Both the position numbers and the translations under genes were made by a program. Source: a virus. Taken from it: a stretch of DNA of 64,000 bases. The DNA lies in IMG/VR virus record IMGVR_UViG_3300033273_000208, positions 1-64,000 of that record; one strand, given 5' to 3'. The notes beneath the pieces were generated by a model, which was not told the DNA's origin, did no database searches, and saw nothing but the letters and a program-made list of their open reading frames with translations. Positions 3-44,600 of this stretch are shown in pieces. Within the stretch, counting starts at the first letter, position 1; each line of letters begins with the position of its first letter.

Positions 3-95
3 TATATTGAGTATGTTGTTGAGGGTGAAGGTTGTCCCTTTGATCCTAATCAGGAACCTATTCTTCCTAGAGATGCAATGCCCGAGTGGAACTAA
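3..95 (+). CDS. 3' end of a hypothetical protein (truncated by window)
   Basis: Open frame YIEYVVEGEGCPFDPNQEPILPRDAMPEWN* ending TAA 93-95, just before the halogenase start. Confidence 0.6.
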   Translation, partial: YIEYVVEGEGCPFDPNQEPILPRDAMPEWN

Positions 96-98
96 TGT

Positions 99-1652
99 AT
101 GATTCGTAATGTTGTTATTGTAGGCGGTGGATCTGCTGGTTGGATGACCGCCGCTGCCTTTGAAAGATTACTTCCCGAATACAACGTAACCCTCGTAGAA
201 TCCCCCGATGTTCCTATTGTTGGAGTCGGGGAATCTACTTTAGGGCATATAAACATGTACCTACATCTGCTTGGTTTGGAAGACCATGAGTGGATGAAAG
301 AATGCGATGCAACATACAAAGTTGGAATCAGATTCACAGATTTCTATAAGAAAGACAATACGCACTGGGATTATCCTTTTGTGGATCCTGATCCTGATGC
401 TCTCCCTGGGGGACTTGTATCTTTCTGGGCGCTTCGCAATGCTTATCCTGAGAAATACTCACACCCTAATACATTCGCCCGAATGGTGAATGGAAACACA
501 TGGTTGATGGAAGAGAATCGTATTGACGATTCAGGTATGTGGGGTGAGATGGATAAGGACTATTCGTACCACATGGATGCGATTAAGTTCGGACAATGGT
601 TGAAGAATAATGTGTGTAAGAACGTCAAGTACGTTCAAGGGCATGTTATGGATGCGGATTATGATGAGCAAGGTAACATCACACGATTGTTCCTTGATAC
701 CAATGTATTCCTAAAAGCAGATCTATTCATTGACTGCACAGGGTTTGGATCTGTGCTGCTGGAAGGATTGATGGGTGTCAAGCACAAGTCTTTCAATCAT
801 ATCCTCCCAAATAATAAGGCAACGGTCTGTCGTGTGCCACATACAGATCCAGAAACTCAGGTGCAGAACTATACAAATGGTACAGCACTTGCTAATGGAT
901 GGGTCTGGAACATTCCACTGTGGAATAGAACTGGCACAGGATATGTGTGGTGCGATAAGTATCAGAATGAGTCGGGTGCTGAGCAGGAGTTTAGATCACA
1001 TCTTGCCAATCATTTTGATAATGTTCCTGACGACTTCCGCGTCATTGATATACGCAATGGCAAGCATGAGAAAGCATGGCATAAGAATGTTGTTGCAGTT
1101 GGACTGTCCTATGGTTTCATTGAACCATTAGAATCCACGGGATTGTTGACAGTACATGAACAGATTCGTCGTTTGATTGAGACACTGCAGACCAGAGATG
1201 GTGTAGTTAGTAGCATTGAGAAGTCAATGTTTAACTGTGCTGCTGATCGTGAGATTGATGGATTTGCCACATTTGTGTCCTGGCACTATGCCTTCTCGCT
1301 ACGTCGTGACTCTGCTTACTGGAGATATGTAACCGAGGATATTGATTACAGTATGGATCATTTCCATATGAACAGTCCTGAGGACAATACATTTAGAGAA
1401 CTTACAACATACAAGTATAGAACTCATGAGTTTCCTGCATCAATGGCAGGTACATTGTATGTACTAGCGGGGAATGATTTTGCTACACTTAGAGGACAGG
1501 GGCAAACTGTTACCTACGAAAAGTTTGGTGAACCTCCCCTAGATAGACTGTCGGGAGACGTTGACAGCAAGATGTATTGTGCATTAGAATACGTCAAGAA
1601 ACTACCTACATCCTATGAGTATTTGAGGGACACCATCTATGCTGTTTCGTAA
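99..1652 (+). CDS. Flavin-dependent tryptophan halogenase family protein (PrnA/RebH-like)
   Basis: GGGSAGW FAD motif, GVGEST, ATYKVGIRF (catalytic Lys), DCTGF, GWVWNIPL (WxWxIP), FIEPLESTG; 517 aa. Confidence 0.92.
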   Translation: MIRNVVIVGGGSAGWMTAAAFERLLPEYNVTLVESPDVPIVGVGESTLGHINMYLHLLGLEDHEWMKECDATYKVGIRFTDFYKKDNTHWDYPFVDPDPDALPGGLVSFWALRNAYPEKYSHPNTFARMVNGNTWLMEENRIDDSGMWGEMDKDYSYHMDAIKFGQWLKNNVCKNVKYVQGHVMDADYDEQGNITRLFLDTNVFLKADLFIDCTGFGSVLLEGLMGVKHKSFNHILPNNKATVCRVPHTDPETQVQNYTNGTALANGWVWNIPLWNRTGTGYVWCDKYQNESGAEQEFRSHLANHFDNVPDDFRVIDIRNGKHEKAWHKNVVAVGLSYGFIEPLESTGLLTVHEQIRRLIETLQTRDGVVSSIEKSMFNCAADREIDGFATFVSWHYAFSLRRDSAYWRYVTEDIDYSMDHFHMNSPEDNTFRELTTYKYRTHEFPASMAGTLYVLAGNDFATLRGQGQTVTYEKFGEPPLDRLSGDVDSKMYCALEYVKKLPTSYEYLRDTIYAVS

Positions 1653-24589: not shown

Positions 24590-26659
24590 ATGCCAGCCGT
24601 ACCCTCTCAACTTACATCCCTTGATTTCTTTGAGATCAAGGAATCAATCAAGTCATATCTGAGAACTCGTGATGAGTTCAGCGATTATGATTTTGAGGGG
24701 TCGTCTGCCTCTTATCTGATTGATATCTTAGCATACAACACGTACTACTCTGCGTTCAATGCCAACATGGCGCTGAACGAGACTTTCCTTGAGTCGGCAA
24801 CTGTTAGAGATAACATTGTTCGTGTTGCTAAGCAACTTAACTACACCCCCAGATCGATCAAAGCAGCTAGAGCTTGTGTTCGTATCAACGTTCAAACCTC
24901 TGCTATTGGTTCTTCTACAAACTTCCCCGAAACCGTTACCCTTAGAAAGGGTGATGTGTTCGTTTCTAGAAACCTGACCGATACTTTCATCTTTGCGGTT
25001 AGGAGTGATGTTCAAGTTTCGGTAGATCCGCAAACTGGACTTGCTGAGTTTAGCAAAATCATCTTCTACCAAGGAAACCTACTCAACTTTGAGTATACCG
25101 TTGATGATACTAAAGATCAGGACTTCATCGTTCCTTCGGAGAACGTTGATACTGAACTCATCAGAGTCTTTGTACGTCCTAACGTACAGTCTCAAGAAAC
25201 TGACGAGTATTCCCCTGTTGGAAACGCTGTGAACCTCGACGGAGGAAGTCGTGTGTACTTCCTTGAGGAAGCAGATGACCTCAGATATAAGATTATCTTT
25301 GGAGATGGCGTCCTGGGGCGTAAACTGCTCAATGGTGAGGTTATTAACATTGAGTATATCCGCACTGCGGGTCCAGAAGCAAACGGTTGTACTGATTTTG
25401 CCTTTACTGGTCTGATTGTTGACTCTGAGGGTCGTCCTATTCCTCCTCAGAACATTATCATCACAACTATTGATGCTGCAACTGACGCTGAGGTCCGTGA
25501 ATCGCCTCTGAGCATCAAGTTCAATGCTCCTAGATCGTTTGCGACACAAAACCGTGCCGTAACCGAGTCTGACTATGAGTTCATCACCAAAAAGATCTAT
25601 CCCCAAGCGGCATCGGTCACTGCATATGGTGGTGAGAAGTTAAATCCGCCGATTTACGGAAAAGTGTACATCGCTATCCGTTCTAAGTCGGGTACAAGAC
25701 TGAATGCAACGACAAAAGCACAGATTAAGAACAATCTGCTTCCATATGCAATGGCGTCAATCGAGCCTGTCATTACAGACCCGACTTCGTTCTTCGTTGT
25801 TCCCAAATCTTGGGTATATTACGATGGAAACTGCGCTGTGAAGAGTTCTGCAGAACTGAAGACCGATCTTCTCCGCAGTATTGACAAATATAACGCTGCT
25901 GGCCAATCAAATCGCTTTGGTGGTCGTATTGAAGGTTCAAAATACAGCTCTATGCTGGATGCGACCAATCCCTGCATCTCTGGTAGCGTTACTCAACTCT
26001 CTTTGGGTCAAAATCTGGAAAACTTCACTTTCGGTACCGTATTTACCGAGTGTCTGGATTTTGGTAACCCCATTCATAACCCCAATGACCTGACAGGCAA
26101 TGATGGCGATGGTAATCAGTGTGCACCTGTCTTCTCATCCGTAAAATCGGGCGTATTCTACGCTACAGGATATACAGCAGATCTTGTAGACCTGATTGCT
26201 GGTGGAATCAGCACCACTCAGGTTGCGAATACAATCGTTAGTGTGGATCAAGAAACTCTCGTCCCCGTAAACATCAGGGACGATGGTAGAGGGTCATTGA
26301 TGCTCGTTACGACCAGAAACGAGAAAGAACTCATTTTGAATAGTAACGTTGGTACTGTGGATTATTCCTCAGGTATCGTCTGTGTTGGACCCATTGCTAT
26401 TGCAGGTACACCAGACGATACAGAACGCCTTCCTGTGTCGGTTAACCCCTATTCGTCTTCTATCGTCATTCCCCCTGGTGTGGATCCTGCAATCTTCAAT
26501 CCTGGTGTTTTCCCCATTGATTACAACACCAATAATAACGTGACATCGCCCTTCGATCCTAACAACTTCGACTCCTGGAACTACGGAACGACCGACATAA
26601 ATATCATTGATTATCCCACGGATACGTTTGTGTATCCTGAGTTCGAGTCTTGTTTCTAA
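24590..26659 (+). CDS. gp6: Baseplate wedge subunit gp6
   Basis: LDFFEIK, DYDFEGS, LAYNTYY, ETFLESA, QNRAVT..DY, YGKVYI. Confidence 0.93.
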   Translation: MPAVPSQLTSLDFFEIKESIKSYLRTRDEFSDYDFEGSSASYLIDILAYNTYYSAFNANMALNETFLESATVRDNIVRVAKQLNYTPRSIKAARACVRINVQTSAIGSSTNFPETVTLRKGDVFVSRNLTDTFIFAVRSDVQVSVDPQTGLAEFSKIIFYQGNLLNFEYTVDDTKDQDFIVPSENVDTELIRVFVRPNVQSQETDEYSPVGNAVNLDGGSRVYFLEEADDLRYKIIFGDGVLGRKLLNGEVINIEYIRTAGPEANGCTDFAFTGLIVDSEGRPIPPQNIIITTIDAATDAEVRESPLSIKFNAPRSFATQNRAVTESDYEFITKKIYPQAASVTAYGGEKLNPPIYGKVYIAIRSKSGTRLNATTKAQIKNNLLPYAMASIEPVITDPTSFFVVPKSWVYYDGNCAVKSSAELKTDLLRSIDKYNAAGQSNRFGGRIEGSKYSSMLDATNPCISGSVTQLSLGQNLENFTFGTVFTECLDFGNPIHNPNDLTGNDGDGNQCAPVFSSVKSGVFYATGYTADLVDLIAGGISTTQVANTIVSVDQETLVPVNIRDDGRGSLMLVTTRNEKELILNSNVGTVDYSSGIVCVGPIAIAGTPDDTERLPVSVNPYSSSIVIPPGVDPAIFNPGVFPIDYNTNNNVTSPFDPNNFDSWNYGTTDINIIDYPTDTFVYPEFESCF

Positions 26660-26664: not shown

Positions 26665-29600
26665 ATGCAAAAGAACATCAACGTATCTGACAGAGTTGCT
26701 TATCAGGTACCTGATTTTATCAGGGAAGAAGATCAGCAGTTCGTAGACTTCCTGTTTGAATACTACAAGTCACAGGAAAAGACAGGCAGGCCCTTTGACA
26801 TCCTCAATAACGTCAATCTCTACCTGGACGTTGATTCTTATTCTCAGAGAACCCTCTCTGCAGGCACCACACTGCTCAAGGACATCGGTTTCGTTGAAGA
26901 CCTCATTGAGGTTGAGTCGATTGATGGATTTATCGAAAAGGATGGCAGCATCCTGATCGATAATGAAGTCATCTACTACGAATCGCTGACTAGAGGTCCT
27001 GATGCGATTCTGACCCCTGGCATTTCGATCGAAGAGTTCAAGAAGAAAGAACAACTCCTGGAATCTCCGTTCCAATACTTTGATGGCGTCCAAAACACCT
27101 TTGATCTACGATTCCTTGGTGAACCGATTCAACCCGTCTCGGCAGATCACCTCATTGTGCGTGTTTATGGCGTAGCACAGATTCCTGGTGAAGACTATTT
27201 CGTTGAAGGCGACACTATTCGCTTTGCAACACCCCCTAGAGAAAAACTCGGCACCGATGACCCGAACACAACCTCCATTATCTACATGGTGGGTTTTGCG
27301 GACATCAATATCGACACTCTGGACGAAAATCCAATCCAAGATGGTTCTAAGACCCATCCGCTTCGCTTTGGTACTCAGTTCTATACTCCAGTATCAGAAG
27401 TTGGTCTGATCGTCAACAGAAATGGTGTCTTCCAGCAACCATTTGTTGATTATGTGATCTATCAGACTACTGCTGATGGCACATACATTGAGTTCCGTGG
27501 TTTGCAACTGTCTGCCAGCGAAAGACTGACGATTCGTTCGATTGAGTACATTTCTCCCGCTGTTGGATCGGGGGCTCAGATCGTTTCTAGTGTCAATGAA
27601 GACGGTCTTCTGATCGACCTCCTGGTTAAAGAGGGTGGTAGTGGTTATCGCCTTGAGTTTGCACCCAAAGTAACCATTACTCCGTCTGACCTTGGTGGTG
27701 TCGGTGCAACTGCACGTAGTTTGATCGGTGGTGCTAAAAATATTAACTTGATCGGTGGTGGTCAGGGATATACCTCATATAACCCCCCTCTGATTGAGAT
27801 TGCTCCCCCTACAAACCCCTATGGCACTCAAGCAACAGCAGAACTGGTTGTTGATGATGAAACTGGTCAGGTAAGTTCCCTCAAGATCACTAACTCTGGT
27901 TCTGGTTACGACTTCATCCCCGCAGTTAGTTTTAAGAACCCCAGTGGTGCTGCGATTACCGATCCTGAGATTGACAGTGAGGGTCGTCTGGTAACCGACA
28001 GCATTAGTGTGACTAATGGTGGTCTTGGTTATTCCAATCCCCCTCTGGTACATATTGACCAGGCTCCTGTAGGTGGCATTGATGCCCAAGCAGTCGCTGT
28101 TTTGAACCCTGAGGGCATTGTGGTCCAAGTTGTGATCACAAACCGTGGTAGAGGGTATACCAATGCCCCCAGAGCACGTATTATTCAACCCGTTGGTGCA
28201 CAAGTCCTTGGTGTGACTGTTGCATCTGGTTCAGTTACTGACATTGAACTGCTGACTGGTGGTAGAGGTTACGTTGACCCCCCATCTGTCTATATTGTCG
28301 ATGATCGTAAGGACTCTGCTGGTCTCCCCATCGGCGGTACTGGTGCAACTGCTGTTGCAACCATCTTTAACGGTGAAATCACAGATATCAGCATTACCAA
28401 CTTTGGTGAGGGGTATGATCCCGCATTCCCACCGAAAATCTACATTGCAGAACCTCAAGCGGCTAGAGCATCTGTAGATATCGGTTTTGATGAGGTTACT
28501 GGATTTGAAATCAACACACCTGGCTCTGGGTACAAACCCTCTGCTCTGGTGGGCTGTGTGCGTGGCACCAGCGGAACCATCTCCTACGATAATGTAGGAA
28601 ACCAAATCTTTGCAACCGAATCTCAACTCAAACTCAGCAATCATATTGCTGGTGCTGAAGTTGTCTCTCTCGACACACTTTTCTTACGTCAGATCTTTGA
28701 TAAGATTCGCCGTCAGTACCTGCCGACCATTCGACTGGATTATACCAAGGTAAATCCCGTTCAGGTCATCAAACGTATCCGTGACTTCTATGTATCTAAG
28801 GGTACTAAGACTGCAACTCAGTTCCTGTTCAAAGTTCTGTTTGGTGAAGAGGTTGATGTCTACTATCCCCGCGATGAGGTCATTTCTCCTTCTGCTGCAA
28901 GTTGGGTTGTTGATACCATCCTTCGTGCAACCCTTATTGAGGGTAACCCAGACGATCTGATCGATGGTGAGATCGTTCAACTCGTAGATGAAGTCGATAC
29001 TAACGTTACTGCTGCTTCTGCATTGATTGAGAACGTTATCTCGATTATTAAAGGCACTGACACCATTTACGAACTGGCAATCTCTGAAGAAACCCTTCAG
29101 GGCAAGTTTATCATCCCATATAAGACAAAACTGGTTGAGTTTCTGAGCAAGACTGATCAGATCATCACTGTGGACTCCACAATCGGATGGCCTGCAAGAA
29201 ACGGTACAATCCGAATCAATGATGAGGAAGTTGTTCAGTATAAAGAGCGTTCACTGAACCAGTTCATCGAATGTACTCGTTCTAAGAACGGTGTGGTTGA
29301 AGATTGGGATCCTGGCACTATTATCTATTCTGATATCTACGTTTACGTCAACTATGGCACTGATCAGCAGTGCAAACTGCGTATTCTGGGTATTGCTGAA
29401 GCAGGAAGTACAACTCTCGACGATACTGGTTCTTACTACCTCGAAGGCGATAAACTGACCGTTGCATCTCTTGGTGCTACCGATCAGGACGAAAAACTGT
29501 CCTCTTGGTTGTACAACGTCAAAAAACTGATTTCGGTTGAGTCTGCAACTCCTGGTGGTCAGAATAATCAGACTGCAACCATCGTAACAAGCAATCCTCA

Positions 29601-32600
29601 TGGTTTGCTGGTGGAAGATAACGTGACAGTCTATGGTGCAAACCCAACTGTCTATAACGGCACTTTCCAAGTCACAGCACGTCTTGATGAGTATACATTC
29701 TCCTATCAGATGCTTGCTCCTACGGATATTATTCCTCAGGGCAACATTCTGCTGTCGGTTGACCTAAACCGTGGTAAGTCCGACGTTACTGCGATCAATA
29801 CTGCGATCACACCGTTTACCAGTAATATCCAAAACTCGTTCTTCAATGCACAGTATGTTTATGCTGCTGCAACGGGTCTTCCCAACTACAAAGTTGGTCC
29901 GTTTATTGGCACTGCACTGATTCCTGGTAACCAACGCAAACTCTTGCGTTTCCCCAGAAAGGCAACAACGGTCTCCAAGCGTGAAACTGTAAGACCCAAC
30001 ACTGCCGTTGGTGCATGGGTCAATGGTGTTTCTGTATGGTCCTATAAGTCCTCTGAGTTCCTGCGCTATGGTCCCCTGACAAGCATTGACATCACTAATG
30101 GTGGTCAAGGGTATGACGCTGGCAATAAACCACAACTGGAGATTTCTGGTGGTGGTGGATCTGGTGCAACTGCAGAAGTTACCGTTAATGGTTCCCTGTT
30201 CTCCATTGAGGTCACTGACGGTGGTACTGGATATAAGACACAACCTCTGGTGTCGGTTGTTGGTGGCGATGGCATTGGTGCTACAGCACAAGCCGTTATC
30301 ACTGGTGGTCGTGTAAGTCGTGTTCTGGTCGAACAACCTGGAACTGGATATACATCCCAACCCCTGATCTCTATTACTGGTGGTGGCGGTAGTGGTGCTA
30401 CAGCAACTGCAAGTGTCCGTGGTCCTATTTCTGCAGTAACTCTGACCAATGCTGGTTCTGGTTACACAGAACTTCCCACTATTAACCTAAACTCTGGTTC
30501 TGGTGCTCTTGCACAACCAATCGTTATCAATGGTCGTATTGTCTCTATTGCTATCATCAACTCTGGTAGTGGTTACACAACTGCACCCAACATTGTGATT
30601 AACGGCGATGGTTTTGGTGCTATCGCAAAAGCAGTCATTGGAACTATCGGTGAAGATAAGGGTAAGGTCATTAGTGTCCAGATCCTGAACAAGGGCATTA
30701 ACTATACTCAGGGCAATACAACAATCCGTTTGGAGGCAGTTGGTGAGTTTGCAACGTTCAAACCCAATGTTTTCCAATGGACCAAGAACCTGCATTATGA
30801 TCTTGCAGACAAGTATGACTTTGCAAGAGGTTATGTCTTCACAGGTTACAATAACCAGTTCGGTGGCGAATATGCACACCTCGTTGACCCGAAAGAACTG
30901 CGCTATGTAGTTGGTGACAACGTATTCCTGGATCCTGCAACAAATACATTCCAAGAACAGACTGCTAACAACGAGCACTCTCCGATTCTTGGTTGGGCAT
31001 ACGATGGTAACCCCATCTATGGACCATATGGTTATATCGACCCCACAGACCAGAATAGTGGTCTGAGAAGACTCCGTTCTTCTTATCAGTTGAAGTCTTC
31101 ACTGGTCTACGAGGTAGACTCCAACCCCAATCCCACTCGTGGCGATGGTCCTCCGCTGAGTGAGTATCCTGCTGGTACATTCGTTGATGACTACGAGTAT
31201 GCATTCCAGTTGGGTGATCTGGACCCCTACAACGGTCGTTTCTGTAAGACCCCCGAGTATCCTGACGGCACTTATGCATATTTCGTCACTATTGACGAAT
31301 CTGATGCGGGTCAAGCAGTATTCCCATATATCATTGGTCCTGAGTTCTATTCTCAACCAGATACCTGGAATATGAGTCAGGATGCGACTCAGGATAATAT
31401 TCCTTCCGATGTTGTCCGTTTCCGCGATCCGTTTACCGAAGTTGACATTGATGTTGATCGTCAACCCAACAGAGAACCAGATATCCTGACTACAGAACTT
31501 GAGGCATATCCTCTGATCTTGGAAATCCAAGATACTAACGGTGATGGCATCATTGACTCTAATGAGCAGTTAGAAACTATCGAACTCTCTGAAGAATCAA
31601 CTCTACAAATCTATGATTACTTCCCAACTGTTTCTGACGAGTCTAGAGTTGATATTGAAGTCGAAACTATTACTAAGTTTGAATCCGCACAGATTGACGG
31701 ATTCGTTATCGAAAATCCTGGTGTTTCTTATCAGGTAGATGACGTTATCTTCTTCAATAATGAGGGATCTGGTGGTTTTGGTGCTTCTGCAGCGGTTTCT
31801 GCTGTTGAAGGTCTCAGCATCCTCGGATATCAGAAGATCATTGAAGATGATGTGGTATACGGTAAGATTACCACTGATGGTAACCACGAACTGTATGTTG
31901 GTGATGAGGTAATCGTTACATCTACAGTTATCCCCGACAATACCAATAAAACCTACTATACCAAGGTTGTTTCTGGTATTGAGGATATTGTCATTGATCA
32001 AGAGGGAGTTGGTTACAACGAATCGATTCCTCCCACATATGAACTGATCACGACTTCTGGTCAGGATGCAGTATTTAATCTGAACGTTACTCAGACTGGT
32101 CAGATTACAGAGGCTCAGATCAGCATTATCAACTCTGGTAATCAGTATGATCCTGAGAATCCTCCACAAGTACGTGTCTCCCACCCACAAATCTTCAAGA
32201 AGACTCGCTACTATGCTGGTGAATACAGAGAAACCACTCAGAGTGAGGAAACTCTTGGTGTATTCAATGTCAACCACTCACTGACAAATGCTCTTCGTTA
32301 TACCTATGTCTGTGGTTCCATCACTAAGTCAGATGGCACAACCGCTGCATGGATTGCTAAGTTTAACGATGTTGGCGATCTGATTTGGGATCGTACACTC
32401 GAAACCATCGATGGTATCACCAAGACTGCTAGATTCAAGCAGATGTACCTCGATGAGCGTGCAGAGAATGACATTATCTATGTTGTTGGTGAAACTGAGT
32501 ACGATAATGCAAACAATCGTCCCGACATCCTACTCGTTAAGTATGAGTCGGCATTTGACAATGCAAACCAACCCGAAGGTCAAGTAAGATACCAGAAGGA

Positions 32601-35600
32601 GATTTCTGGTGTGTCTGGTACTACTCGTCGTGACTATGCGATGGGTATCACCCTTGGCGAAGAAGAAAGAGTATACATCTGCGGTTATACCGACACCAAC
32701 TCACCCGACCCCGATGATATGTGGGTCATTCAGATGAATGAAGAAGGTGAGATGAGAGAGAAGCGTAAGTTCTCTTCTTCGGATGATGATGAGCGTATGC
32801 ACCAGATCAAGTATCTGGGTGATGCAAGATATCTGTTTGTCGGCATGAATATGTCCGACTATTACATGATTATTGGTGAGTTCTTCTTCGATGGTAATAA
32901 CATCGAACTTTCCTATGCTAAGAACATCAATATCTCTGGTGGTAGACCCCAGAATCCTCGTTTCACGATTGACAACTATAATGATGTATATCTGACATTT
33001 GATATCTTTAACAATGCCATCCAGAAGAACTCTGCTGTTGGTATTGCCAAGTTTGCTTATGATCAGATCAATGCTAATGAACCCACCTGGGATTGGTATA
33101 AAATCCTTGCACCTAGCACAGAGTTTGTTTCTATCACCAATGCAGACATCAATATTGATATTTTTGGTAATGTGACCCTGGTCACTGACACCAAACTTAC
33201 CGAAAACACCAGAAAAGTTGGTGCTCACTATATTAAGTTTGATGGTGAGATTCTTAAGCAATCTACTATCGAAGATGTTGACACAGTTGGTGTTCAGGCA
33301 ACAACCCACACTGTTGATGATTCGGGAGACCTGATCATCTTTGGTCAGAAGCAAAAGTCCGATCAAGCGGCATCTTACCGTTTTGATGGTTCTGAGGGTA
33401 GTGGCGGATTTATTTCTGCTATTACTAACATTACTGGCACTGCCGCAACTCGTGGTGCTGGTGTTGGTACTCTTGGTTCTATTTCTGCGGCAGATCAAAT
33501 CAGAGCAACCAATATCGGCACTCTGACTACTGCAACTGCTGTCAACGTTCTCCGTGCTGGTAAGATCTCAACCGTTGGTGGATTTAGTGCTGCTGATGTT
33601 CGACGTGCAGGTACCGTCCTTGATCTGGAGAACTTCAGTGCTGCTGATGCCCGTCGTGGTGGTGCAGTTAATGGTGTAACCAACATCTCCGCTGCAGATC
33701 CGAAGCGTGGTGGTGTTATTGCATCTGTAAACAATATTGGTGCTGCAGATCAAGCAAGAGGTGGTCGAATCACCTTGATGGCAAATATCTCTGCTGCAGA
33801 CCCCATCCGTGGTGGTAATATCCTCGGTGTTGGTAATGTTAGTGCTTCCGATCCTTCCAGAACTGCTGGAACATATCAGGCTGTTACCTATACAACATCT
33901 GGTAGTGGTGTTAATGCCGTCTTTGATATTACAGTCAATGCTGCAGGTGCAGCAATCATTACAGTTGTAAATGGTGGTATTTCGTTTGCAATCAACGAAA
34001 CAATCACTGTTGCTGACGCTCAGTTGGGCGGTGGTGGTGCACCTGATGTGACATTCCAAGTCAATGCTATTGGTGGTTTTAACTACACAAATGTTCCTGT
34101 AACCAGTACAGATGTAAACAGCACTGGTTCTGGTGCCACTGTGGATGTTGGTGTTTCTTCCACTGGTGATGTTTCCTTGACAGTCAACCAAGGTGGTATT
34201 GGATACTATAACGGTGAGACTCTGACCATTTCCGATTCGGATATCGGTGCCTCTGGTGCAGCGAACCCAACGTTTGATGTATCTGGTCTTGGTGGATTCT
34301 CTTATACCAACGTTGCTAGCACAAACAATGGTGTTGGTGTTAATGCAACCTTTAACGTAACTATTGATGGCACGGGTGCGGCAATCGTTGTACAGGTCAA
34401 TCAGGGTGGTCTTGCATATGCTGCAGGCGACACAGTAACCATTTCAGATTCTCTGCTTGGCAATAATGGTGCAGCAAACCTGACCTTTGATGTTGAAACG
34501 ATTACTGCTCCTGCAACATATACAAACGTTGCTGCCACTTCGACAAGTGGCATCGGTACAAATGCAACGTTCTCCGTCACTATCGATGCTAACGGTGCCG
34601 CATCTATCGTATCTGGCACTCCTGCTGGTCTGTCTTATGCGGTCGGTGACACCATTACGATTGCAGACACATCTCTGGGCAATAGTGGTGCTGCTGACCT
34701 CACATTTGAGGTAGCAACCATCAAAGCACCCCCTCTGTATAGCAACGTTGCTACAACATCTAATGGTGCTGGTTCTGGTCTGACTCTGCAGGTCACTATC
34801 AATGCAGATGGTTCTGTAGCATTCTTGAACGTCACCGATCCTGGTAATGGATATGTGGTTGGTGATACCATCACTATCCAAGATGCAGATGTTGGTGGTA
34901 CTGGTGCTCCAAATATTACTGCAGATGTTGAGTCTGTTGGTGGTGGTGCAATCTATACCGTAAGCAACTTTACGAGCACTGGTTCTGGTACTGGTGCCAC
35001 ATTCAACGTCACTGTTGACAGTAGTGGTGCTATTTCTCAGGTAAATATCATTAACAGTGGTAATGGATTCGTTGCTAACGAGACCGTGACTGTTCCCGAT
35101 AGTGAACTGGGTAACAACGGCGGTGCAGACTTCACATTCAATGTGACTGCAACTAACGGCATTACTTATAGTGGTATCTCCACGTGGACATCCAGCAATA
35201 ATGCATATGGTGGTGGTACTGGTGCAGTATTCAACATTGAGTTGGATAACCTGGGTAACTTTACAGCACTGACACCAATCAGCCGTGGTGCAAACTTTGT
35301 TCTTAACGACACAATCACCATCCCAGATTCTCAGTTGGGTAACACTGGGGCACCTGATGTAGTCCTGAGTGTGGCGTCCATTGAGGGTCATACTTACAAT
35401 AATATTTCTGCCACCACAAGTGGAACTGGCGAACTCGCAACCTTCAATGTTGTCGTTGATGGCAATGGTCTGGCAACACCTACTGTTAATGACCCTGGTA
35501 GAGAATATCAAACTGGTGATACATTCACCATTACCGATGCTCAACTTGGCAACTTTGGTGGTGCTAATCTGACCTTTGAGGTCACCGTACTTCAAGGTAT

Positions 35601-38600
35601 TGTCTATAGCAACATCAGTGCTTCTGAAGGCAGTGGCGTTAATGCATCTATCGACGTTAACGTTGATGCTAGCGGTGCTGTTACTATCAATATGAATAAG
35701 ACGGGTCGTGGATATCTGATTAGCGACACTCTGAGAGTAACTGATGCACAACTGGGTGGATATGGATATGCCGACATCACGTTTGATGTTCAAACAACCA
35801 TTAACGTCTTTGATGAGACAAAACTGAACCGTGGTACTCCCCAATACTACAATGCAACCGATGCAACCATTGATACGGTTAACTATAAGTGGGGAACTGG
35901 TTCTACTGCACTAACTGCAGCAAACCACTATGGTATTACAGGTTTCGACCTGAATACATCCGAGTGGACCCTGCAAGGTTGGTTCCGTATTGATAGTGCA
36001 ACTCAAGCACTGAACAACTCTCAACCCACATTCTTCGAGACTCATCCTAATGATGGCAGCAACCCTTCCAATACGCTGAGACTGTATGTTGATGGTGATA
36101 GTGGTAGTGCAGACTATGGAAAACTGAAACTGGTCCATGAAGGAACCACTGACGTTGCGGTATCCGTTTCTGCTACTGTTTGGGCAACATTTGCTGGTGG
36201 CGCATGGGTTCATGTTGCACTGTCTAAGACTCAGCCCACATTGGGTGCATATGACTATGCAGCATACATCAACGGTCAACAGTTGGGTCTGTGGTCTGGT
36301 AGTACGGATGATATTGGTGTTGATGAAGTATACGTTGGTGGTATCAAAGTTCCAACAACATATACAACACTTATCGGTAACATCGATGACTTTGTGATCG
36401 ATGATGATAGTCAGTATTCTGGTGCTTCTTTCACTTTGCCTGATGCTGCTATTCCGATTAGAACAACAAACACTGGTGTATCGATCTATAAGATCGATAG
36501 ACAGCATGATCGTCGTGGAACATTTGCAGTAACTGATCTGCCGAACTCCACATCGGTTGCATTCCTCGCAGAATCTAACTGGTCATATAACACCCAGACT
36601 CAACCTGCAATGACTAACTGGGAGATTGGTCCTGGTGGTCTGCAGATTCTTGACTATGCTGAGGTTACCAGTCAGTTGACTACAGGCATCTATACATTTG
36701 ACTACGATTCCGTTCTGTACGGTTCTAAGACTTCTACCGTTCCTTCTCCTGGTGGAAAGAGACTTGTACTGTCTCCTGTCGTAACACCAAAGTATTATAT
36801 CAAGGATGCGACATATCAGAAGATTGATAGTGTCCAACAACTGACCTTTAATCAGGATGTCCGCTTTACTAAGGGGCAAATCCTGCAACAGTACAACGAG
36901 CAGGGCACTACCCAGCGTTACGGCACTATTGTTGAAGTTCCAGAGGGAACTATTGAGAATCCTGGTCTGGGCACAACCTACAAGATTGGTAACATCTTCC
37001 CTGCTGCAGCAACATTTAATACCACTGATAAAATCAGAAGCACCAGTGCAACTGATGCAGGTCTGAACGTTATTACTGGCATTACATTCACAGTTGCTCG
37101 TGATTTTGCTGAATGGGAACAGGCGGCATCTTACATTGCTGGTGATCAGGTTTACTCTCAGGGTAATATTTACACAGCAACCACCAATGGCACCGCTGGT
37201 ACTAATGAACCAGTCCACACAACTGGCAATGCTAGCGATGGTGGTGTTTCTTGGGACTTCACAGTTTCTGCCAACACTCCCCTTGAAGTAGATCTGTCGA
37301 ATACCCCATATCCTACACCTAAGGATCCTATCTGGACAAAACTGAAGATCTATGACATCGGTGATGTTGTCTACTACGGCAGAAACAAGTATACCGCAAC
37401 TGCTGCTGGTCGTTCTTCTCAGAATCCTCCCACCCACACTACAGGCACTGCAACAGACGGTACTGTAACTTGGCAATATACTTCGACATATGATCCTCTG
37501 AGTGATTATGCAACCTTCAAAGAGTTTGATGCTGGTGAAAACTGGTATTCTCTCACGGTTAATAAAATCTACAGCGATTCCAACTTCATTGCTAATGACA
37601 ACCTTAGCATTGGTGGTTCGGTAACTGTCAATCCTAAAGAGGATGCACCCACTATCCTTCAAATCAATGGTATCGGTAGTGTCAAAGAGATCTCTCTCAT
37701 TGCAGTTCTCGACAAGACAATCCTCGTTGATACGCAGGAAAGAACTGATCTTGTTTACTGTGTCGCAAATAGTGCACACAAATACTCCGCAAATGACATC
37801 CTGTTTACAGAAGGATTCAGCACAAGCGAGTTTAATGGTTCGTTCTTCGTCAGAGAAGTCTTCTCTTCTAGAGAGTTTACTTTCCAAGTTCGTGAAACAC
37901 CTGCAGCAGAACCAGCATTCCTGCAGAACAGCATTGCTCGTGTAAACATTTACACTAAGCACCCAACTCTGCTTCTGATCAGGAACCACAACTACCTCTT
38001 TGATATGAGTGACAGCAGTAACCTTGGTTACTATCTGTCATTCTCTCAAGATAACGAGTTCAAACTGGAATACTCCTTCAATAATATTGAACGTCAGGGA
38101 ACTCCTGGTGTGTTTGACGGTACCAATGCACCATTCGTTAAACTCAAAGTTGACGGTCAAGTTACTAATATCTCTTATTACTTCGACCCCTCCAGAACTG
38201 GTGCAAACTCCCCTGTGGGTGATAAGTCCTTCATTGATGTTAAGAAGACACCGTTTGACGGCAGATATACCGTCAGCAAAGTTCTTTCTCAGACTGAGTT
38301 CCAGTTCCCACTGCTATTTGAACCTGAAAACAATAATGCCGAAATCGGTAGTGATGATCAGGGCAATCCATATTCCGTTTACTCCACAACATCCAAGAGA
38401 GCAATCGGTCCTATTGCAGACATCAAACTGATTTCTGCTGGTGGTTTCTATCAGAGACTGCCCATCATTTCCGATATTGCATCTTTCCGTCAGATTGAGC
38501 GTGTTGAGATTATCTCTGGTGGTTCTGAGTATGCTATCGGTACATATGATCAGGTGCCCATTAACGGTGACGGTGAAGGCGGTCTCTGCCGCATCGAAGT

Positions 38601-41600
38601 TGCAGTTGATGAAGAAATCGGTTCTGGCACTATCGTTAGCGTAACCGTTACCGATCCTGGTAAGGGATATACAACTGCAAGCATCGACGTTGATGGAATC
38701 CAAGGTATTCTTGGTCCCACGCTGACTGGTTCGGGTGCTGATTTGGATGTCATCATTCCTGATGAGGGATCTGGTGCATCGGTCTTCCTGACTGGTAAGA
38801 ATATTGGTAAGATCAAGAAACTCAAGAACAATGAGTTTGGTTATGGTTACTCCCACGACTACACTCTGAAACCTGAGATCACCTTCCCGATCAACCTGCA
38901 ACTCTTCAATACCTCGATTCTGTCGCAGATCACCATCACCGATCCTGGTGCTGGATACACCTCTGCTCCTGCGGTGATCATTTCTGGTGGCGGTGGTGTT
39001 GGTGCCGAGGCAGTTGCAGTCGTTAAGAACAACCGTCTGAGTGAGATCCAGATCAAGAATCCTGGTGCTGGTTACTCTTCAGAACCCAGCGTAACTCTGA
39101 AGTCTGAGTTCAACTACGTTGTCAACCTTGACTTGAACTACCTACAGTTCAACTTCCCTCATGGCATTACTAATGGTGCTGCTATTCAGTTCCGTGCCGA
39201 TGATGTTGGTACTACTGTTGGCGAACTGCCGAAGCCCAGTTCTGCTGGTTTGACCAGTTTGGTGGTGGGTCAAACCTACTATGCGATTGCTGGAGAATCC
39301 AACTCTCTGGAAGGTGACCAACTCCGCTTTGCACTGACTCCTGCCGACGCCGAGTCTGGTAACTTTATTACATTCCTGACTCAGGGTGCTGGTCGCCAAG
39401 TCCTGCTTACCGAGGTCTTCGGTGGTAAAGCAGAGGCAGTGGTTGAAACATCCAGATTCCTGGAAGGTGAGAAAGTCTATCAAGGCGATTCTGAAGAAAC
39501 CGCAACCGTTTTTGCATATGTTTCTGAGAATAATGGTTGGCAGCTTGGTCCCAAGATTCTGAAACTTATCAATGCTACTGGCACATTTGTGGTCGGTGAG
39601 CGTGTAAATGGTTCTGTGTCTCGTGCATCTGGTGTTATCGATAACGTTTCCCTTGCTAAGGGCGTCCTGAACATCGACTCTCTGACACAAACTCCTGGTA
39701 GATTCATCGATGACGTTGGTAAACCTTCCGAAATCGTTCAGAAGATTCAAGACTCCTTCTTCTACCAGAACTTCTCTTACGTCATTAAGTCCACGATTCC
39801 CATCAACCGTTGGCGTGAGCAAATCCTGGAGAATAACCACCCGACTGGTTTCAACATGTTCGGTCAGCTTCAACTGGCTGGTGGTAAGGATATCTCTGGT
39901 CGTAAGGTTGGTACTGAGTTCATCAAGCAGGTGAACATCAATGAGTACGCCAATGTCAACCAAATCACATCCTTCGGTGCTGCTCAACCGATCTACACAG
40001 ACTTCAACAATACTGAGGTTCTGTTCCGTAAGAAGCGTTTGACCAACTCTGAGGAAATCCTCACCTCCATCGTTAAGAAACTGGACGATATTGCCGATCA
40101 GTTTGATGGCATTCAAACAGCATTCAATCTTACGGTTGAGGGTGAACAGGTCATCGTTAAGAACAACCAGTTGTTGATCACCCTGAACGGTATCATTCAG
40201 GCACCTGTCGATGCTTACGATATTGTTGGTGGTCAGATCGTCTTCAAGGAAGCACCGAAGGCACCTTCTAAGGTTGTCTATCGTGATGTGGGTCTTGAGT
40301 TCCTGACTATAACTCGTCTGAACCTGACAGATGTTTCTGGCATCTATCCCGAGATTGGATATCAGATCTCTGGTGCTTCTAGCGATGCTTACGCAACTGT
40401 AGTCGCATCTGGTACGAATACAATCGATGTGGTTGATATTACAGGTGGTCCTTTCCAGAACAACGAAAGAATCGACGTTTCTGCTCTTGGATTCAGTGCA
40501 CTGATTGGTTCACAGGAAGTCCTCACACAGTCCACACTGTATGAGTTTGATGAAACTCTGGTTTGCACCAACCGCAACCGTGGCAACCCGACTGCTCAGG
40601 TTAACGCGATCAACTTGGATGAAAACGGCGATGCCAGCAGTGCAATCGTTGTAAGCAAGACAACTGGTACTGCTAAGTATGAGACTGGCGTCTTTGACTT
40701 CCGTCTGCAGGATATCATCTACTCCACTCGCTCCAACTTGGCGGCACGTATCACATTCCTGGCACCTTACAGAGATCCCGTCACTGACGATGTTGTTGGC
40801 GAACAGATCCTGACTGCTGGTTCTTCGTTCTATGGTCTGCTGTTTGAGCGTATTGTTAGCACCAGCTATCCGAACATCCTGTTGGATGATATTTCTAAGT
40901 CCACCATCACACCTACCGAACTCTTTGACAACGAAGAGCGTATCAACTCGTTCTTCCTTGACTTTGAAGAAGTTCGTTCCACTGAGGTAACTTATACCGA
41001 TCTTAGTAGTGGAGTCTTTAGTAATGGCGATGATATCCGTAACATTAAGGTCTTCTATAACAACCCCATTTACGGTGCTGCATATGGAACTGCTGCACCA
41101 CGTTATTACGATGCTAGAAATCGCATTTCTGCATCCAAAGATGAAATCATTGACTTTGCAACTGCAGAGATTGCAGTTGAGCATGAAGACTTCTACTATC
41201 CTGGTCAACCTCAAACCGACTCCCGTTCTAGATTCCGTGACGGTTATCGTCTGATCATCAAGAACAAGGATTGGATTGTTGCCAAGACTTATGAGGATAT
41301 GATCCTCCAGTATCCTTCTCTGGTGGTTCCGAATAGTGATAAGTGTAAGCGTGACTTGGGACATTTTGTTGATGCAGTTGCATACGACACCTATGCAGGT
41401 GGTAACAAGTATGCTCGCAAGTTTATCCAGATGTACTTCACAGGTCAGGGTCTTGGTTATATCAACCAGCAACTTGCAGAAACCACTTGGGCATATGGTC
41501 GTGCAGCAACCTACATGAAGGATGCTATCACTAACCAACTGTCTGGTACTGAGACTATTGATTCTGTGTTATACACCAAGTATCAAGATCTTACAGTTAC

Positions 41601-44600
41601 CGAAGGTGGCGCTACCTATGGTGCACCTGGCACTGTCTCCAACACCGATACTGGTGCTTGTGCAGATGTTCAATCGGCAGTTGATACTTTGGCAACAGCG
41701 ATCACTGAGACGCTGCTTGGTAACCAAGACTTCGACGACATTGACGCCGAAGAACCCACATATAATACTACCGAAGAAAAATGCCGTCGTGACGTTGGTT
41801 ACTTCGTTGATGGTCTTGCGTCTGACGTTGGTCAGGGTGGCAACCTGGGTGTTGTTACCTGGGCACGTTTCTACTTCGAGAATGGAACTTTCATCAGCAA
41901 CGGTGTTGCTGGCGAAGAAGCAGAAACAATCACCGCTCTGAACAAAGCACGCGATCTTGCTAAAAGAGCAATCAACAACCTTCTGTATGAAAAGGATTTG
42001 ACAATCCTGTATGATCCTGCATCTTACGGTGGTTCTGCTCCTGGTCATGACTATGATGCAAACTACGCTTCTGGTACTAACCAAGATGCAAGCAACTGTG
42101 CGGACGTTCAGTCCACCATTGACACTCTGACTACGATTGCTACAACTGCAATCAACAACCAGACACTTGCAAATATCAACGCTCTGTCCTCCATCGATGA
42201 TGGTTCCTTCAGAGATGGTGAGACTATTCGTGTTATCAAGGTTGCATATAAGAACAAGTCCACAGGTCTGTTTAACAGATTGGATTCTGTTCGCGGTGTC
42301 ACCTCTGGTGCAACCATGACCCTGGAGGGTGTTAACTCTGGTCTTAAGTGGTTGTTTGCTTCCAGTGCAGGTGTCAATGGAACGTTCCAAGACGATGAGT
42401 ACATCACCAACTCCACCATCACCAACCCTGGTGCTGCACAAGTTACTCAGAGTGTTCTGAATGTCAAGTCCGACTTGGCAAACAGCACTAAGTCTCTGAA
42501 GTTTGTTGCAAACTCCTGGCTGAAGAAGGCAGAGTCCTACGATGTAGACTTCGGAACTGGCGATTTCACTCTGGAAGGATGGTTCTACCCCACTGGCATT
42601 GTTGGTCAGCAAACCCTCTTTGACTTCCGTCGTACAGCGACTGAGGGTCTCATGATTGAGATGAACAACGACACTCTCCGTGTTTATAGCGGTTCAGGTA
42701 CTGTCGTTATCATTTCCAATGCGGTCTTTACTGCTAACACCTGGCACCACGTTGCAGTCGTCAGAACATCTGGCGTGATGCTCGCATTCGTGGATGGTGT
42801 TCAAGCAGGTGGTAGTGCTACCAATAGCGATGACTTCGGATGGGGTCCTTGCTACATCGGTTCCGACTTGAATGGATCTAATGGTTTCATCGGTAATGCC
42901 GATCAGGTCGCAGTCTACAAGGGATATGCCAAGTTTACTTCGGCATTCACTGCACCCACTAGCAATGACTGGGATGATGAGAGAATCGTTCTTGGTCTGA
43001 ATGCTGAACAACCCTTCATCGTTTCTACTGCTGAGGTTTATGCTCAGTTCAGTGGTCAGACAGTATCGTCTGCAACTGCTAAGAGAATCGACTACGCCGA
43101 TAAGCGTGTAATCGTTGAGGACATTGATCTGGGTCGTGACTCCCATCGTGATGCGGCAGATCTTATCCTCAAGAACGATAAGTGGATCTCTGAGGTTGCT
43201 GTCGGTCGCATGAAGGCGAAGTATTCTGACTTCGTGTTGCCTGGTGATGATCCCGCAACCAACATATATCAAGGCACCTACTATTGCCTCCGCGACACCG
43301 AAGAGTACATCCTCGACGCTATCGTTAAGGATCTCAAGTATGGTGGTGATTACTATACAACCGTCGCGGCCAAGGGTTACCTGGAGAAAGATGGCAGTCT
43401 GGACTTCATCGGCAAAGAACTTCTGCAATCCCTGTACGCATGGGAGCAAGCAGGTGAACTCTGCAAGTACGTTGTTTCGACAACTGACACAGATCTGACC
43501 GATGCATACACTGAAAGACTCCGCATTCCTCTGACTGGTTCTGCTGCAACGCAGGCAGTTCTGGATAACATCGACGCTCTGACTCAGAACATTCTGAACA
43601 TCCTTGCACCTACTGGCGACCGCTTCCGCGACGCTGGCGATGCTCTGTGGTTGAACAGAACTTACATTGCTGAGGAAGTTGTTGGTTACATTGAGAACAA
43701 GTGGGAAGTTACCATCAATGGTACCTACTACGACAAACTGCAGATCCCTGGTGGTAACAACGGTCAGGTCTGCATCCGCGACATCAAGGAGTACATCATT
43801 CCTGCAATCATTGCTGACCTGCTCACAGGTGGTAATGCAGCAGTCAACGAAGTCATCGACTTCTACCTGAATGGTGAGCAAGATATCCTTCACGTCAGCG
43901 AAGAACTGCTGCCGATGCTGGATGCAATCTCCTACACCAAGTATCTGTCCACCAAGGCAATCAACCAACTGCTTGTTCAGTTCGGTCAAGCACCTGATCC
44001 TGCTCAGGGTTCTACAAACTACGACGATTACTACATCGCTCAGTACACTCAGGCAGTTCCCTACATCGATCACACGGTAACCGTGGATCCTCAGGGTTAT
44101 GACGCCAACCGCGCTGATAACAACCTGCTGATTGATGCAGCAGACATGATTGAAAGGAACAAGAAGCAGATTGCTTCTGAGGCAGTCATGAGAATGAATG
44201 ACCTCGCTAAGTTCCAAGATCTACAAATCCCTGGCGGTCAGCAGAACTGTATCGATGATGTGGTTGGTTTCATTGAGGCACTTGTCCACGACATTCGTCT
44301 GGGTGGCAACAGCAAGGTTTTTGATGCTGCTGAACTGTACATCGAACCTGAGAACAACTCCCTCCGTCACATTGAGAGTGAAGCAGAAGCATCCATCTAC
44401 GCATACAAGATGGCGAGAGACATCTGTGTTCTCGCAATGCGTAACGGATTCGGACGCGATAACATCTATGGCTATGGGTCTGGTGAGGAAAATGATCCTA
44501 GCGTTGAGTCTTACGATCAGAACCCACAATCCTCTCGCATCATTGATGCTGCAAACATCCTCGACAGAAATATCCGTTTCATTGCTGAGGAAGCAGTTTA

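What the first reader, a model, noticed from the sequence alone, without database searches (positions are those of the whole stretch)
33376..35910. Nested A9-B9 repeat stalk inserted into a LamG-like domain
Seen: exactly nine 17-aa A repeats followed by exactly nine ~72-aa B repeats. The innermost A9+B1 reads as one continuous unit resembling single domains elsewhere (gp8 IDTVVIQASGAGYNNGTYENV; gp7 IERVEIISGGSEYAIGTYDQV). The block interrupts what looks like a LamG-like domain start (YRFDGS | ...DETK...TIDTVNYKWGTGS...WTLQGWF). Inference: each domain was inserted recursively into a loop of the previous one, so A(i) completes B(10-i). The result would be an out-and-back stalk of adjustable length.
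Basis: partly seen in the sequence, partly recalled or inferred. Interest (0 to 1): 0.72.

Follow-up and report, generated by a model that had tools for sequence, protein, structure and literature searches.

The report
Nine-deep nested domain stalk in cyanophage baseplate protein
A giant baseplate protein of a marine T4-like cyanophage carries nine short strand units followed by nine small barrel domains, and comparison with relatives plus structure prediction indicate that each strand completes the mirror-image domain, giving a hairpin-like stalk whose length varies between phages.

Summary
Residues 2246-3046 of the 7523-aa gp7-like ORF (26665..49236, +) hold nine 17-aa A units, each a beta strand plus an 'SAAD..R' loop. 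Nine 69-76-aa B domains follow.

1. Counts co-vary. More than 50 other proteins carry one A directly before one B, so that pair is the canonical domain. At this place, gp7 relatives have 0+0 (S-SZBM1 and about 70 IMG/VR loci), 1+1, 5+5, 7+7 or 9+9 units. An unrelated 2075-aa protein has 9+9. No unequal pair was found.

2. Geometry requires a return path. Relatives without the block join its two flanks by about 7 residues, so the ends of the roughly 800-aa block must lie together. The 1+1 and 5+5 blocks sit in a different loop about 38 residues downstream, and there the loop piece stays with B.

3. AlphaFold2 supports the pairing. A closed three-level excerpt scored pLDDT 80.6 and pTM 0.63. One 96-residue reference barrel aligns to A7+B3, A8+B2 and A9+B1 in turn.

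Caveats: the full-length fold left the A array undocked, no coordinates were available, and function is inferred. The closest precedent is the nested SBHM array of cyanobacterial RNA polymerase Si3. The scan also noted this same stretch in an overlapping window of the same genome (e1-6078535).

The parts
26665..49236 (+). Giant gp7-like baseplate/virion structural protein, 7523 aa (P0001)
   Evidence: ORF list and translation. The N-terminus matches phrog_701 'virion structural protein' (E 6e-253) and phrog_2885 'baseplate wedge subunit'. The upstream ORF 24590..26659 matches phrog_219 'baseplate wedge subunit'. Relatives are annotated 'baseplate wedge initiator' in cyanophages S-SZBM1 and S-WAM1.
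33376..33399 (+). Upstream flank of the block: strand 'YRFDGS' plus short linker (res 2238-2245)
   Evidence: Aligns to 'YRFNN' of block-free homologs; about 7 residues later those continue with 'DTTKQ'.
33400..33867 (+). A array: nine units of 17 aa (res 2246-2401), each a beta0 strand plus an 'SAAD..RGG' loop, with Arg at 2263+17k
   Evidence: As conserved among orthologs as the B array (64% against 61% identity, no indels in the 9/9 clade). The last three strands are predicted as 5-10-residue beta strands with pLDDT about 66, 82 and 91 in the excerpt model.
33868..34074 (+). B1 (res 2402-2470), innermost domain, contiguous with A unit 9
   Evidence: B HMM 84 bits. Reference barrels align to model 37-47..121-124, which is A9+B1.
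34075..34293 (+). B2 (res 2471-2543)
   Evidence: B HMM 77 bits. Reference barrels align to model 19-25..194-198, which is A8+B2.
34294..34512 (+). B3 (res 2544-2616)
   Evidence: B HMM 93 bits. Reference barrels align to model 1-7..254-270 with 78-86 residues aligned, which is A7+B3.
34513..34731 (+). B4 (res 2617-2689)
   Evidence: B HMM 89 bits.
34732..34947 (+). B5 (res 2690-2761)
   Evidence: B HMM 89 bits.
34948..35157 (+). B6 (res 2762-2831)
   Evidence: B HMM 87 bits.
35158..35385 (+). B7 (res 2832-2907)
   Evidence: B HMM 85 bits.
35386..35595 (+). B8 (res 2908-2977)
   Evidence: B HMM 91 bits.
35596..35802 (+). B9 (res 2978-3046), outermost domain, proposed partner of A unit 1
   Evidence: B HMM 87 bits.
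35803..35934 (+). Downstream flank 'NVFDETK...KWGTGS' (res 3047-3090), which resumes the host sequence
   Evidence: Residues 3050-3116 align without gaps to residues 247-313 of the block-free homolog L015.
35935..36399 (+). ConA/LamG-like host domain core
   Evidence: Pfam PF13385 Laminin_G_3, E 3e-5, 24.6 bits (cut-off 27.6), profile positions 9-140 of 151.

Best explanation
The block is a homotypic nested ('Russian doll') array of one small beta-barrel domain, inserted into a short loop at the start of a LamG-like domain of the gp7-like baseplate protein. The canonical domain has three parts in order: an N-terminal strand (beta0), an Arg-containing 'SAAD..R' loop, and a core of about 70 aa with five strands and one short helix. 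Here only the innermost copy (A9+B1) is contiguous. The other eight cores (B2-B9) lack their own beta0 and loop, and the eight missing pieces are stacked upstream in reverse order. The chain therefore runs out from the base to the tip as the A array, one unit per domain length. It turns at A9/B1 and returns as the B array. Each A strand adds to the barrel of its mirror partner, A(i) with B(10-i), most likely beside that domain's C-terminal strand. Both chain ends thus meet again at the host loop. The result would be a stapled rod whose length is set by the number of levels: 0, 1, 5, 7 or 9 in different phages. At roughly 3 nm per level, the nine-level rod would be about 25-30 nm long. Shown here: the repeat anatomy, the canonical one-A-one-B domain, the equal counts in several lineages, the loop insertion, and the mirror pairing in a predicted model of three levels. 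Inferred: the pairing of the outer six levels; folding from tip to base as the B domains leave the ribosome; and function as a rigid, length-tunable strut or feeler on the baseplate periphery for host-surface contact or spacing.
For: 1. Canonical unit. In more than 50 proteins, one 'h.ThSAAD..RTAGTY' segment directly precedes one B domain, including whole proteins of 89-91 aa. Ordinary tandem arrays are [A-B][A-B] with a period of about 76-90 aa. In gp7 the B-B junctions ('TFDVxxIxG-xxY', period 69-76) lack the loop and strand, and eight extra copies lie upstream.

2. Equal counts.
- 9/9: the window and relatives at 62-97% identity.
- 7/7: P0013, at 40% identity.
- 5/5: P0164, P0165 and P0166.
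- 1/1: P0167.
- 0/0: S-SZBM1 and about 70 IMG/VR loci.
- 9/9: the unrelated P0017, where an HMM built from four clear units finds exactly nine.

3. Two connectivities, same parts list. In the 5/5 lineage the upstream units are 13-aa strands only, and the Arg loops ('TDQRAAGTY') stay in the B junctions. There is still one strand, one loop and one core per level. That block and the 1/1 block sit in a different loop, about 38 residues downstream.

4. Geometry. Block-free homologs join the flanks by about 7 residues, so the ends of the roughly 800-aa block must be adjacent.

5. AlphaFold2 on residues 2347-2616 (three levels, six orthologs). Mean pLDDT is 80.6 and pTM 0.63. The A strands are E4-12, E21-30 and E40-44. 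The C-terminal strands of B1-B3 are 8-9 residues long, against 3-4 in the model where A is undocked. VIA-align places EF-Tu domain 3 (about 96 aa) and other single barrels on model ranges 1-3..268-270 (80-85 aligned), 19-21..197-198 (77-82 aligned) and 37..123 (73-79 aligned). B alone gives 59-70 aligned.

6. The A array is as conserved as the B array and free of indels in the 9/9 clade.
Against: The full-length AlphaFold2 run (863 aa, six sequences) left the A array at pLDDT 24-49 with no docking. The nested pairing therefore appears only in a truncated excerpt that was chosen to be 'closed'. No coordinates, contacts or PAE were available; the pairing is read from first and last aligned residues and aligned lengths of structural alignments with low Z (3.2-4.0). 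The alignments used for folding were shallow. Similarity among A units does not mirror similarity among B units (Mantel r 0.20, p 0.24), so no trace of paired duplication history is visible. Orthology of individual repeats between the 7/7 and 9/9 forms could not be resolved. The number of independent lineages with n>1 is small (three or four), and counts in the more distant proteins were partly made by eye. P0016 has compact B-B junctions without a matching upstream strand array. No experimental data bear on function.
Confidence: 0.68

Rival explanations
1. Two independent tandem arrays. The A units form a separate linker, beta-solenoid or beta-meander. The B domains are self-sufficient beads on a string that curl back to close the loop. 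Equal copy numbers are coincidence or shared ancestry.
For: The full-length AlphaFold2 model docks no A unit (pLDDT 24-49) yet still builds nine five-stranded B domains at pLDDT 60-79. The mirror-similarity test is not significant. P0016 has some compact B-B junctions without extra strands upstream.
Against: Equal numbers occur in 1/1, 5/5, 7/7 and 9/9 gp7 forms, at two different insertion sites and with two connectivities, and in the unrelated P0017. The canonical domain needs the A segment. The excerpt model places each A strand with its mirror B and raises B confidence to 75-93. The A array is as conserved as B and indel-free.
Confidence: 0.17
2. Intermolecular strand donation. The A array of one gp7 copy completes the B domains of a neighbouring copy in an antiparallel swap, tying baseplate wedges together in the manner of donor-strand exchange in pili.
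For: This would also require equal A and B numbers. gp7-type proteins are present in six copies per baseplate in T4 (established knowledge of T4 baseplates). The monomer fold of the full block did not dock A.
Against: The block's two ends must already meet at a 7-residue loop, which the intramolecular hairpin satisfies directly. A9 is covalently continuous with B1, as in the canonical domain. The monomeric excerpt folds confidently in the nested way. No multimer prediction could be run.
Confidence: 0.1
3. The pattern is an artefact of counting degenerate low-complexity sequence, and the A 'units' are not discrete structural elements.
For: A units are short. The first and third window units are degenerate ('ITGTAATRGAG', 'ATAVNVLRAGK'). 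Counts in P0026, P0032, P0068 and P0088 were made by eye only.
Against: The 17-residue spacing is exact, with an Arg at every eighth position in all nine units. Seven of these Arg are invariant across six sequences down to 40% identity, and the other two fall in the gaps of the 7/7 form. HMM scans find nine units and no others.
Confidence: 0.03

Closest known systems
Si3 insertion of cyanobacterial RNA polymerase beta' (RpoC2): nested sandwich-barrel hybrid motifs
   Same: Both are elongated arrays of repeated small beta domains of a single fold, inserted into a loop of a host domain, so that both chain ends lie at the base. In Si3 several domains are built from distant parts of the chain (SBHM-2 to -5), and the array is 150 A long (PMC10895346). 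It is described as a six-level recursive insertion, the deepest example named in a survey of 2.7 million domains (PMC13114784).
   Different: The fold and family differ: no SBHM match was seen, and the B domain has no Pfam family. The host differs too, being a phage baseplate protein rather than a polymerase. The nesting here is deeper (nine levels) and strictly regular. The split falls after a single N-terminal strand (with or without its loop), not in mid-domain. Copy number varies between close lineages (0, 1, 5, 7, 9). Si3 is solved experimentally; this block is only predicted.
Ordinary tandem arrays of the same domain in cyanophage fibre and structural proteins (annotated 'YadA domain-containing structural protein', 'fiber', 'short tail fiber protein'; phrog_4527, phrog_6005)
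   Same: The B core and the 'SAAD..RTAGTY' lead-in are the same.
   Different: In those arrays each domain is contiguous, [A-B][A-B], with a period of about 76-90 aa, and the array is open-ended. In gp7 the lead-ins are separated from eight of the nine cores and stacked upstream.
Donor-strand complementation in chaperone-usher pili
   Same: In both, an incomplete beta domain is completed by a strand supplied from elsewhere, which gives very stable rods (established knowledge of the family).
   Different: In pili the strand comes from the next subunit. Here it would come from the same chain, in mirror order, and no chaperone is implied.
T4 gp7 baseplate wedge initiator
   Same: The gene lies directly after the gp6 homolog in a T4-like structural module, and relatives carry this annotation.
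   Different: The protein is seven times larger. Similarity to T4 gp7 itself was not tested here, and the block has no counterpart in most cyanophage homologs.

Membership tests
Recursive (nested) homotypic domain insertion, as in RNAP Si3 | The array lies inside a loop of a host domain, and the flanks are contiguous in homologs without the array. | tested here: met
   S-SZBM1 and about 70 IMG/VR gp7 homologs read '...SYRFNN-DSDIDE-DTTKQ...'. Window residues 2170-2241 and 3050-3267 align to L015 residues 168-239 and 247-456.
Recursive (nested) homotypic domain insertion, as in RNAP Si3 | N-terminal pieces are stacked first and C-terminal pieces follow, in equal numbers, with only the innermost copy contiguous. 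| tested here: met
   Nine A then nine B, with A9 continuous with B1 as in the canonical domain. Counts are 7/7, 5/5, 1/1 and 9/9 elsewhere.
Recursive (nested) homotypic domain insertion, as in RNAP Si3 | In three dimensions each N-terminal piece completes the mirror-image C-terminal piece (three inner levels). | tested here: met
   Predicted model only: pLDDT 80.6, pTM 0.63. Single-barrel targets align to model 1..269, 19..198 and 37..123, with 10-15 more residues aligned than for B alone.
Recursive (nested) homotypic domain insertion, as in RNAP Si3 | The same pairing holds for all nine levels in the intact block. | tested here: inconclusive
   In the full-length AlphaFold2 run the A array has pLDDT 24-49 and pTM is 0.28. 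No further fold jobs were available.
Sandwich-barrel hybrid motif (SBHM) fold | Structural or sequence match of the repeat to SBHM domains. | tested here: inconclusive
   No SBHM entry is among the rows listed in the two VIA-align searches, and Pfam gives nothing for A or B. Absence from a list does not exclude the fold.
Pfam PF13385 Laminin_G_3 (host domain) | Profile match above the gathering score that also covers the flank strands. | tested here: inconclusive
   E 3e-5, 24.6 bits against a cut-off of 27.6. The match starts at residue ~3091, so neither 'YRFDGS' nor 'FDETK' is inside the profile. PF13385 is on record for the whole protein, which also has a second LamG-like region.
Translation-protein beta-barrel (EF-Tu domain 3-like) | Fold match with convincing Z. 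| tested here: inconclusive
   Best Z is 4.0, rmsd 3.5 A, 80 residues aligned. These matches are used here only as rulers for topology, not as evidence of kinship.
T4-type gp7 baseplate wedge protein | Synteny after gp6 in a T4-like tail module, and a family-level sequence match. | tested here: met
   The upstream ORF matches phrog_219 'baseplate wedge subunit' (E 3e-196). The N-terminus matches phrog_701 and phrog_2885 'baseplate wedge subunit'. Direct similarity to T4 gp7 was not tested.

The most novel reading that the evidence does not exclude
This is the deepest and most regular self-nested protein architecture yet seen: nine copies of one domain, each threaded through the previous one after a single strand. 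It arose at least twice, at two insertion sites with two different split points, in one host domain of cyanophage baseplate proteins. It would fold tip-first as translation proceeds, and phages would use it as a modular ruler to set how far a baseplate appendage reaches. The same design may recur in other phage fibre proteins (P0017; possibly P0026, P0032, P0068, P0088; a mirror form in P0016) and in the helical repeats of the same protein.
Probability: 0.5. Interest if true: 0.8.

Novelty: new variant of a known kind. Interest (0 to 1): 0.7.

Why it matters
Nested insertion of a domain into a copy of itself is rare. The deepest case named in a recent survey of 2.7 million domains has six levels (RNAP Si3; PMC13114784).

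A strictly regular nine-level nest with natural 0-, 1-, 5-, 7- and 9-level variants would offer three things:
- a natural series for studying how such architectures grow;
- a model for how a chain folds when every domain but one needs a strand made hundreds of residues earlier;
- a model for how a closed, stapled rod of adjustable length can be placed in a surface loop.

For phage biology, it points to a length-variable appendage on the baseplate periphery of abundant marine cyanophages, which is a plausible determinant of host-surface interaction. For annotation, it defines an uncatalogued domain (beta0, Arg loop and core of about 70 aa) that is widespread in cyanophage structural proteins.

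Tried and rejected
- Tandem Repeats Finder on the DNA found nothing.
- Pfam on the block, on the A array alone and on B1-B2 gave only chance-level hits.
- blastn and tblastn against cultured phages found no record covering the whole block; only B-type domains in other structural proteins matched.
- The first homolog search timed out.
- Foldseek on the low-confidence full-length model gave meaningless matches, with TM about 0.05.
- A PDB sequence search with the block-free junction of S-SZBM1 found nothing relevant.
- The ESM Atlas look-up of a canonical-domain protein returned only unnamed viral clusters scoring below 0.85.
- A degenerate DNA pattern for 'KVLTIDTID' in IMG/VR hit only an unrelated ATPase-like ORF.
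- Repeat-by-repeat orthology between the 7/7 and 9/9 forms was ambiguous.
- The Mantel test for mirrored A/B similarity was not significant, whether nested (r 0.20, p 0.24) or parallel (r -0.19).
- Parallel pairing A(i)-B(i) is rejected. A9 is covalently continuous with B1, and the model ranges are mirror-ordered.


Full report
Setting. The window comes from a T4-like cyanomyovirus: its nearest database matches are Synechococcus and Prochlorococcus phages. The finding lies inside one ORF, 26665..49236 (+), of 7523 aa. The ORF directly upstream (24590..26659) matches phrog_219 'baseplate wedge subunit' (E 3e-196). The N-terminus of the giant protein matches phrog_701 'virion structural protein' and phrog_2885 'baseplate wedge subunit'. 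Relatives are annotated 'baseplate wedge initiator'. I therefore call it gp7-like. A 94%-identical protein of the same length exists in public metagenomes (P0002), so the ORF is not an assembly oddity.

Observation. The repeats are as described.
- Nine A units lie at exactly 17-residue spacing (starts 2256 + 17k), each with an Arg at its eighth position.
- An HMM made from them finds these nine and nothing else of positive score in the protein.
- Nine B units fill residues 2402-3046, with lengths of 69-76 aa.
- Each B unit scores 77-93 bits against the B HMM, while the best hit elsewhere in the protein scores 14 bits.
- The DNA shows no tandem repeat, and B units are only about 40% identical to each other. 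The array is therefore old.

What the units are. A full-library profile search with the block gave 226 hits. In more than 50 of these proteins a single B domain is immediately preceded by one A-like segment, 'h.T(V/I/F)SAAD..RTAGTY'. Among them are whole proteins of only 89-91 aa. The canonical domain therefore has three parts: an N-terminal strand (beta0), an Arg-containing loop, and a core of about 70 aa. Ordinary arrays of this domain are [A-B][A-B] with periods of about 76-90 aa. In gp7, read in the canonical phase, each A unit is one beta0 strand plus one 'SAAD..RGG' loop. The ninth runs straight into B1. The eight B-B junctions ('TFDVxxIxG-xxY') lack both strand and loop. The parts list is thus nine strands, nine loops and nine cores, but only the innermost set is contiguous. 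Neither A nor B has a Pfam family.

- 9/9: all relatives of the window clade that are complete over the block, at 62-97% identity.
- 7/7: P0013, 40% identical over the block.
- 5/5: P0164, P0165 and P0166, a more distant gp7 lineage. They have five B domains preceded by five short units such as 'GEIVTVDTLDQGI'.
- 1/1: their relative P0167 has a single canonical domain at that same place.
- 0/0: S-SZBM1 and about 70 IMG/VR homologs have none.
- 9/9: P0017, a 2075-aa protein of another kind, has nine B domains of 69-80-aa period. They are preceded by nine 'FGQAIDTI....G..' units, and an HMM built from the four clearest units finds exactly nine.
- No homolog with unequal numbers was seen.

The 5/5 lineage is especially telling. 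There the upstream units are strands only (13 aa), and the Arg loops ('TDQRAAGTY') remain in the B junctions. The chain is cut at a different point of the domain, yet one strand, one loop and one core per level are kept.

Insertion geometry. In block-free homologs the flanks are joined by about seven residues ('...SYRFNN DSDIDE DTTKQ...'). The window aligns to such a homolog without gaps on both sides of the block. The two ends of the roughly 800-aa block must therefore lie within reach of a seven-residue loop. A straight string of nine domains cannot satisfy this unless something returns along it. The A array, with one unit per domain, is that return path. The 5/5 and 1/1 blocks sit in a different loop of the same region, about 38 residues further on, between 'KIKADDALTG' and 'DWANAAIKIPG'. 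At least two insertion sites therefore carry equal-count modules. The region after the block matches Pfam Laminin_G_3 just below threshold, starting at residue ~3091. The host is LamG-like, but it is not shown that the 'YRFDGS' strand belongs to that fold.

Structure prediction. Two runs were made.

The whole block (863 aa, six sequences) folded poorly, with mean pLDDT 59.5 and pTM 0.28. The nine B domains came out as five strands plus a short helix at pLDDT 60-79. The A array scored 24-49 and was undocked. This run neither supports nor refutes pairing.

The nested model predicts that any symmetric central excerpt is a closed module, so I folded A7-A9+B1-B3 (residues 2347-2616) with six orthologs. 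This gave mean pLDDT 80.6 and pTM 0.63.
- The three A strands became beta strands (E4-12, E21-30, E40-44) with pLDDT of about 66, 82 and 91.
- The C-terminal strands of B1-B3 lengthened to 8-9 residues, from 3-4 in the undocked model.

The tool returns no coordinates, so I used structural alignment as a ruler. Against about 48,000 PDB representatives, and again against Foldseek's top 1000, single barrels of about 80-100 residues aligned to three classes of model range. These barrels were above all EF-Tu domain 3, chain residues ~298-393.
- 1-7..254-270: 78-86 residues aligned, more than the 72 residues of B3.
- 19-25..194-198: 77-82 residues aligned.
- 37-47..121-124.
- B2 or B3 alone gave only 59-70 aligned residues.

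The range starts coincide with the starts of the A strands, and the range ends coincide with the ends of the B domains. In the model, therefore, A7 packs with B3, A8 with B2 and A9 with B1, which is the mirror pairing. The Z-scores are low (at most 4.0), so these matches say nothing reliable about kinship of the fold. Among the weak matches are barrel domains of myovirus baseplate wedge proteins (Mu, phi812, P1, E217, A-1(L)) and T4 sheath domain I. That is a lead only.

Other evidence. The A array is as conserved as the B array among orthologs (64% against 61% identity) and has no indels in the 9/9 clade. That fits a structured element rather than a floppy linker. A test for shared duplication history was not significant (Mantel r 0.20, p 0.24): similarity among A units does not detectably mirror similarity among their proposed B partners. 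Repeat orthology between the 7/7 and 9/9 forms could not be resolved. How levels are added therefore remains open. It could be true insertion of a copy between strand and core, or separate duplications in both arrays with selection for equal numbers.

Mechanism. The best reading is an intramolecular, mirror-ordered strand complementation that builds a stapled, out-and-back rod from a surface loop. The tip is the only contiguous domain, and both chain ends lie at the base. Each level would add roughly the length of a 9-10-residue strand (about 3 nm), so nine levels would give about 25-30 nm; this figure is inferred, not measured. Because the A array is translated first, the domains can only complete from B1 outwards, so the rod would zip up from tip to base; this too is inferred. 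Position on a baseplate wedge protein and length variation between phages suggest a strut or feeler for host-surface contact or spacing. Function is the weakest step.

Comparison with the known. The closest precedent is the Si3 insertion in the trigger loop of cyanobacterial RNA polymerase. It has eight SBHM domains and is 150 A long, and several of its domains are built from distant chain segments (PMC10895346). A 2026 survey describes it as a six-level recursive insertion and the most complex case it names (PMC13114784). The present block shares the principle but differs in fold, host protein, depth (nine levels), regularity, split point (after one strand) and natural copy-number variation. 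I class it as a new variant of a known kind.

Verdict. Pairing of the outer six levels, the evolutionary route and the function are unproven.

Noticed in passing
P0016 residues ~1648-1905 (protein; not in the window): Three compact B domains (period 73) are followed by three stacked 13-aa strands, 'VIITVTEIVDNDQ / IIITVTEIADNDQ / IIITITSTQINS', before the next domain. This may be a mirror-image form of the same design, with C-terminal strands piled after the cores. Earlier pairs in the same protein do not fit a simple equal-count rule.
   Followed up: partly
P0026, P0032, P0088 (three B each) and P0068 (four B); proteins: By eye, short Gly-led strand units equal in number to the compact B domains lie just upstream, for example 'GQPIDQI...' and 'GQPLDNF...' in P0088. 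The boundaries are subjective and the sequence is low in complexity.
   Followed up: partly
window 41101-46230: Earlier first-reader notes (e1-6078536, e1-6078537) claim a similar body-then-closing-helix nesting in the helical Cys repeats of the same protein. I did not test this. If it is real, nesting would be a recurring design in this gp7.
   Followed up: no
window 29764-49287, minus strand: Many long antisense ORFs (up to 541 aa, for example 44221..45846 -) lie inside the gp7 gene. They are most likely a by-product of its composition and codon pattern, not genes.
   Followed up: no
P0008-P0011 (7859-7862 aa) versus the window protein (7523 aa): The 64%-identity relatives are about 340 aa longer. 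In their printed sequences I saw 'TPTGATY.P.TGDM..TIG.H.L' segments in the C-terminal helical-repeat region that I did not see in the window protein. This length variation is independent of the A/B block, which stays 9/9.
   Followed up: no
window 55812-63167 (+): A second giant ORF (2451 aa) lies downstream in the same structural module. It was not examined.
   Followed up: no
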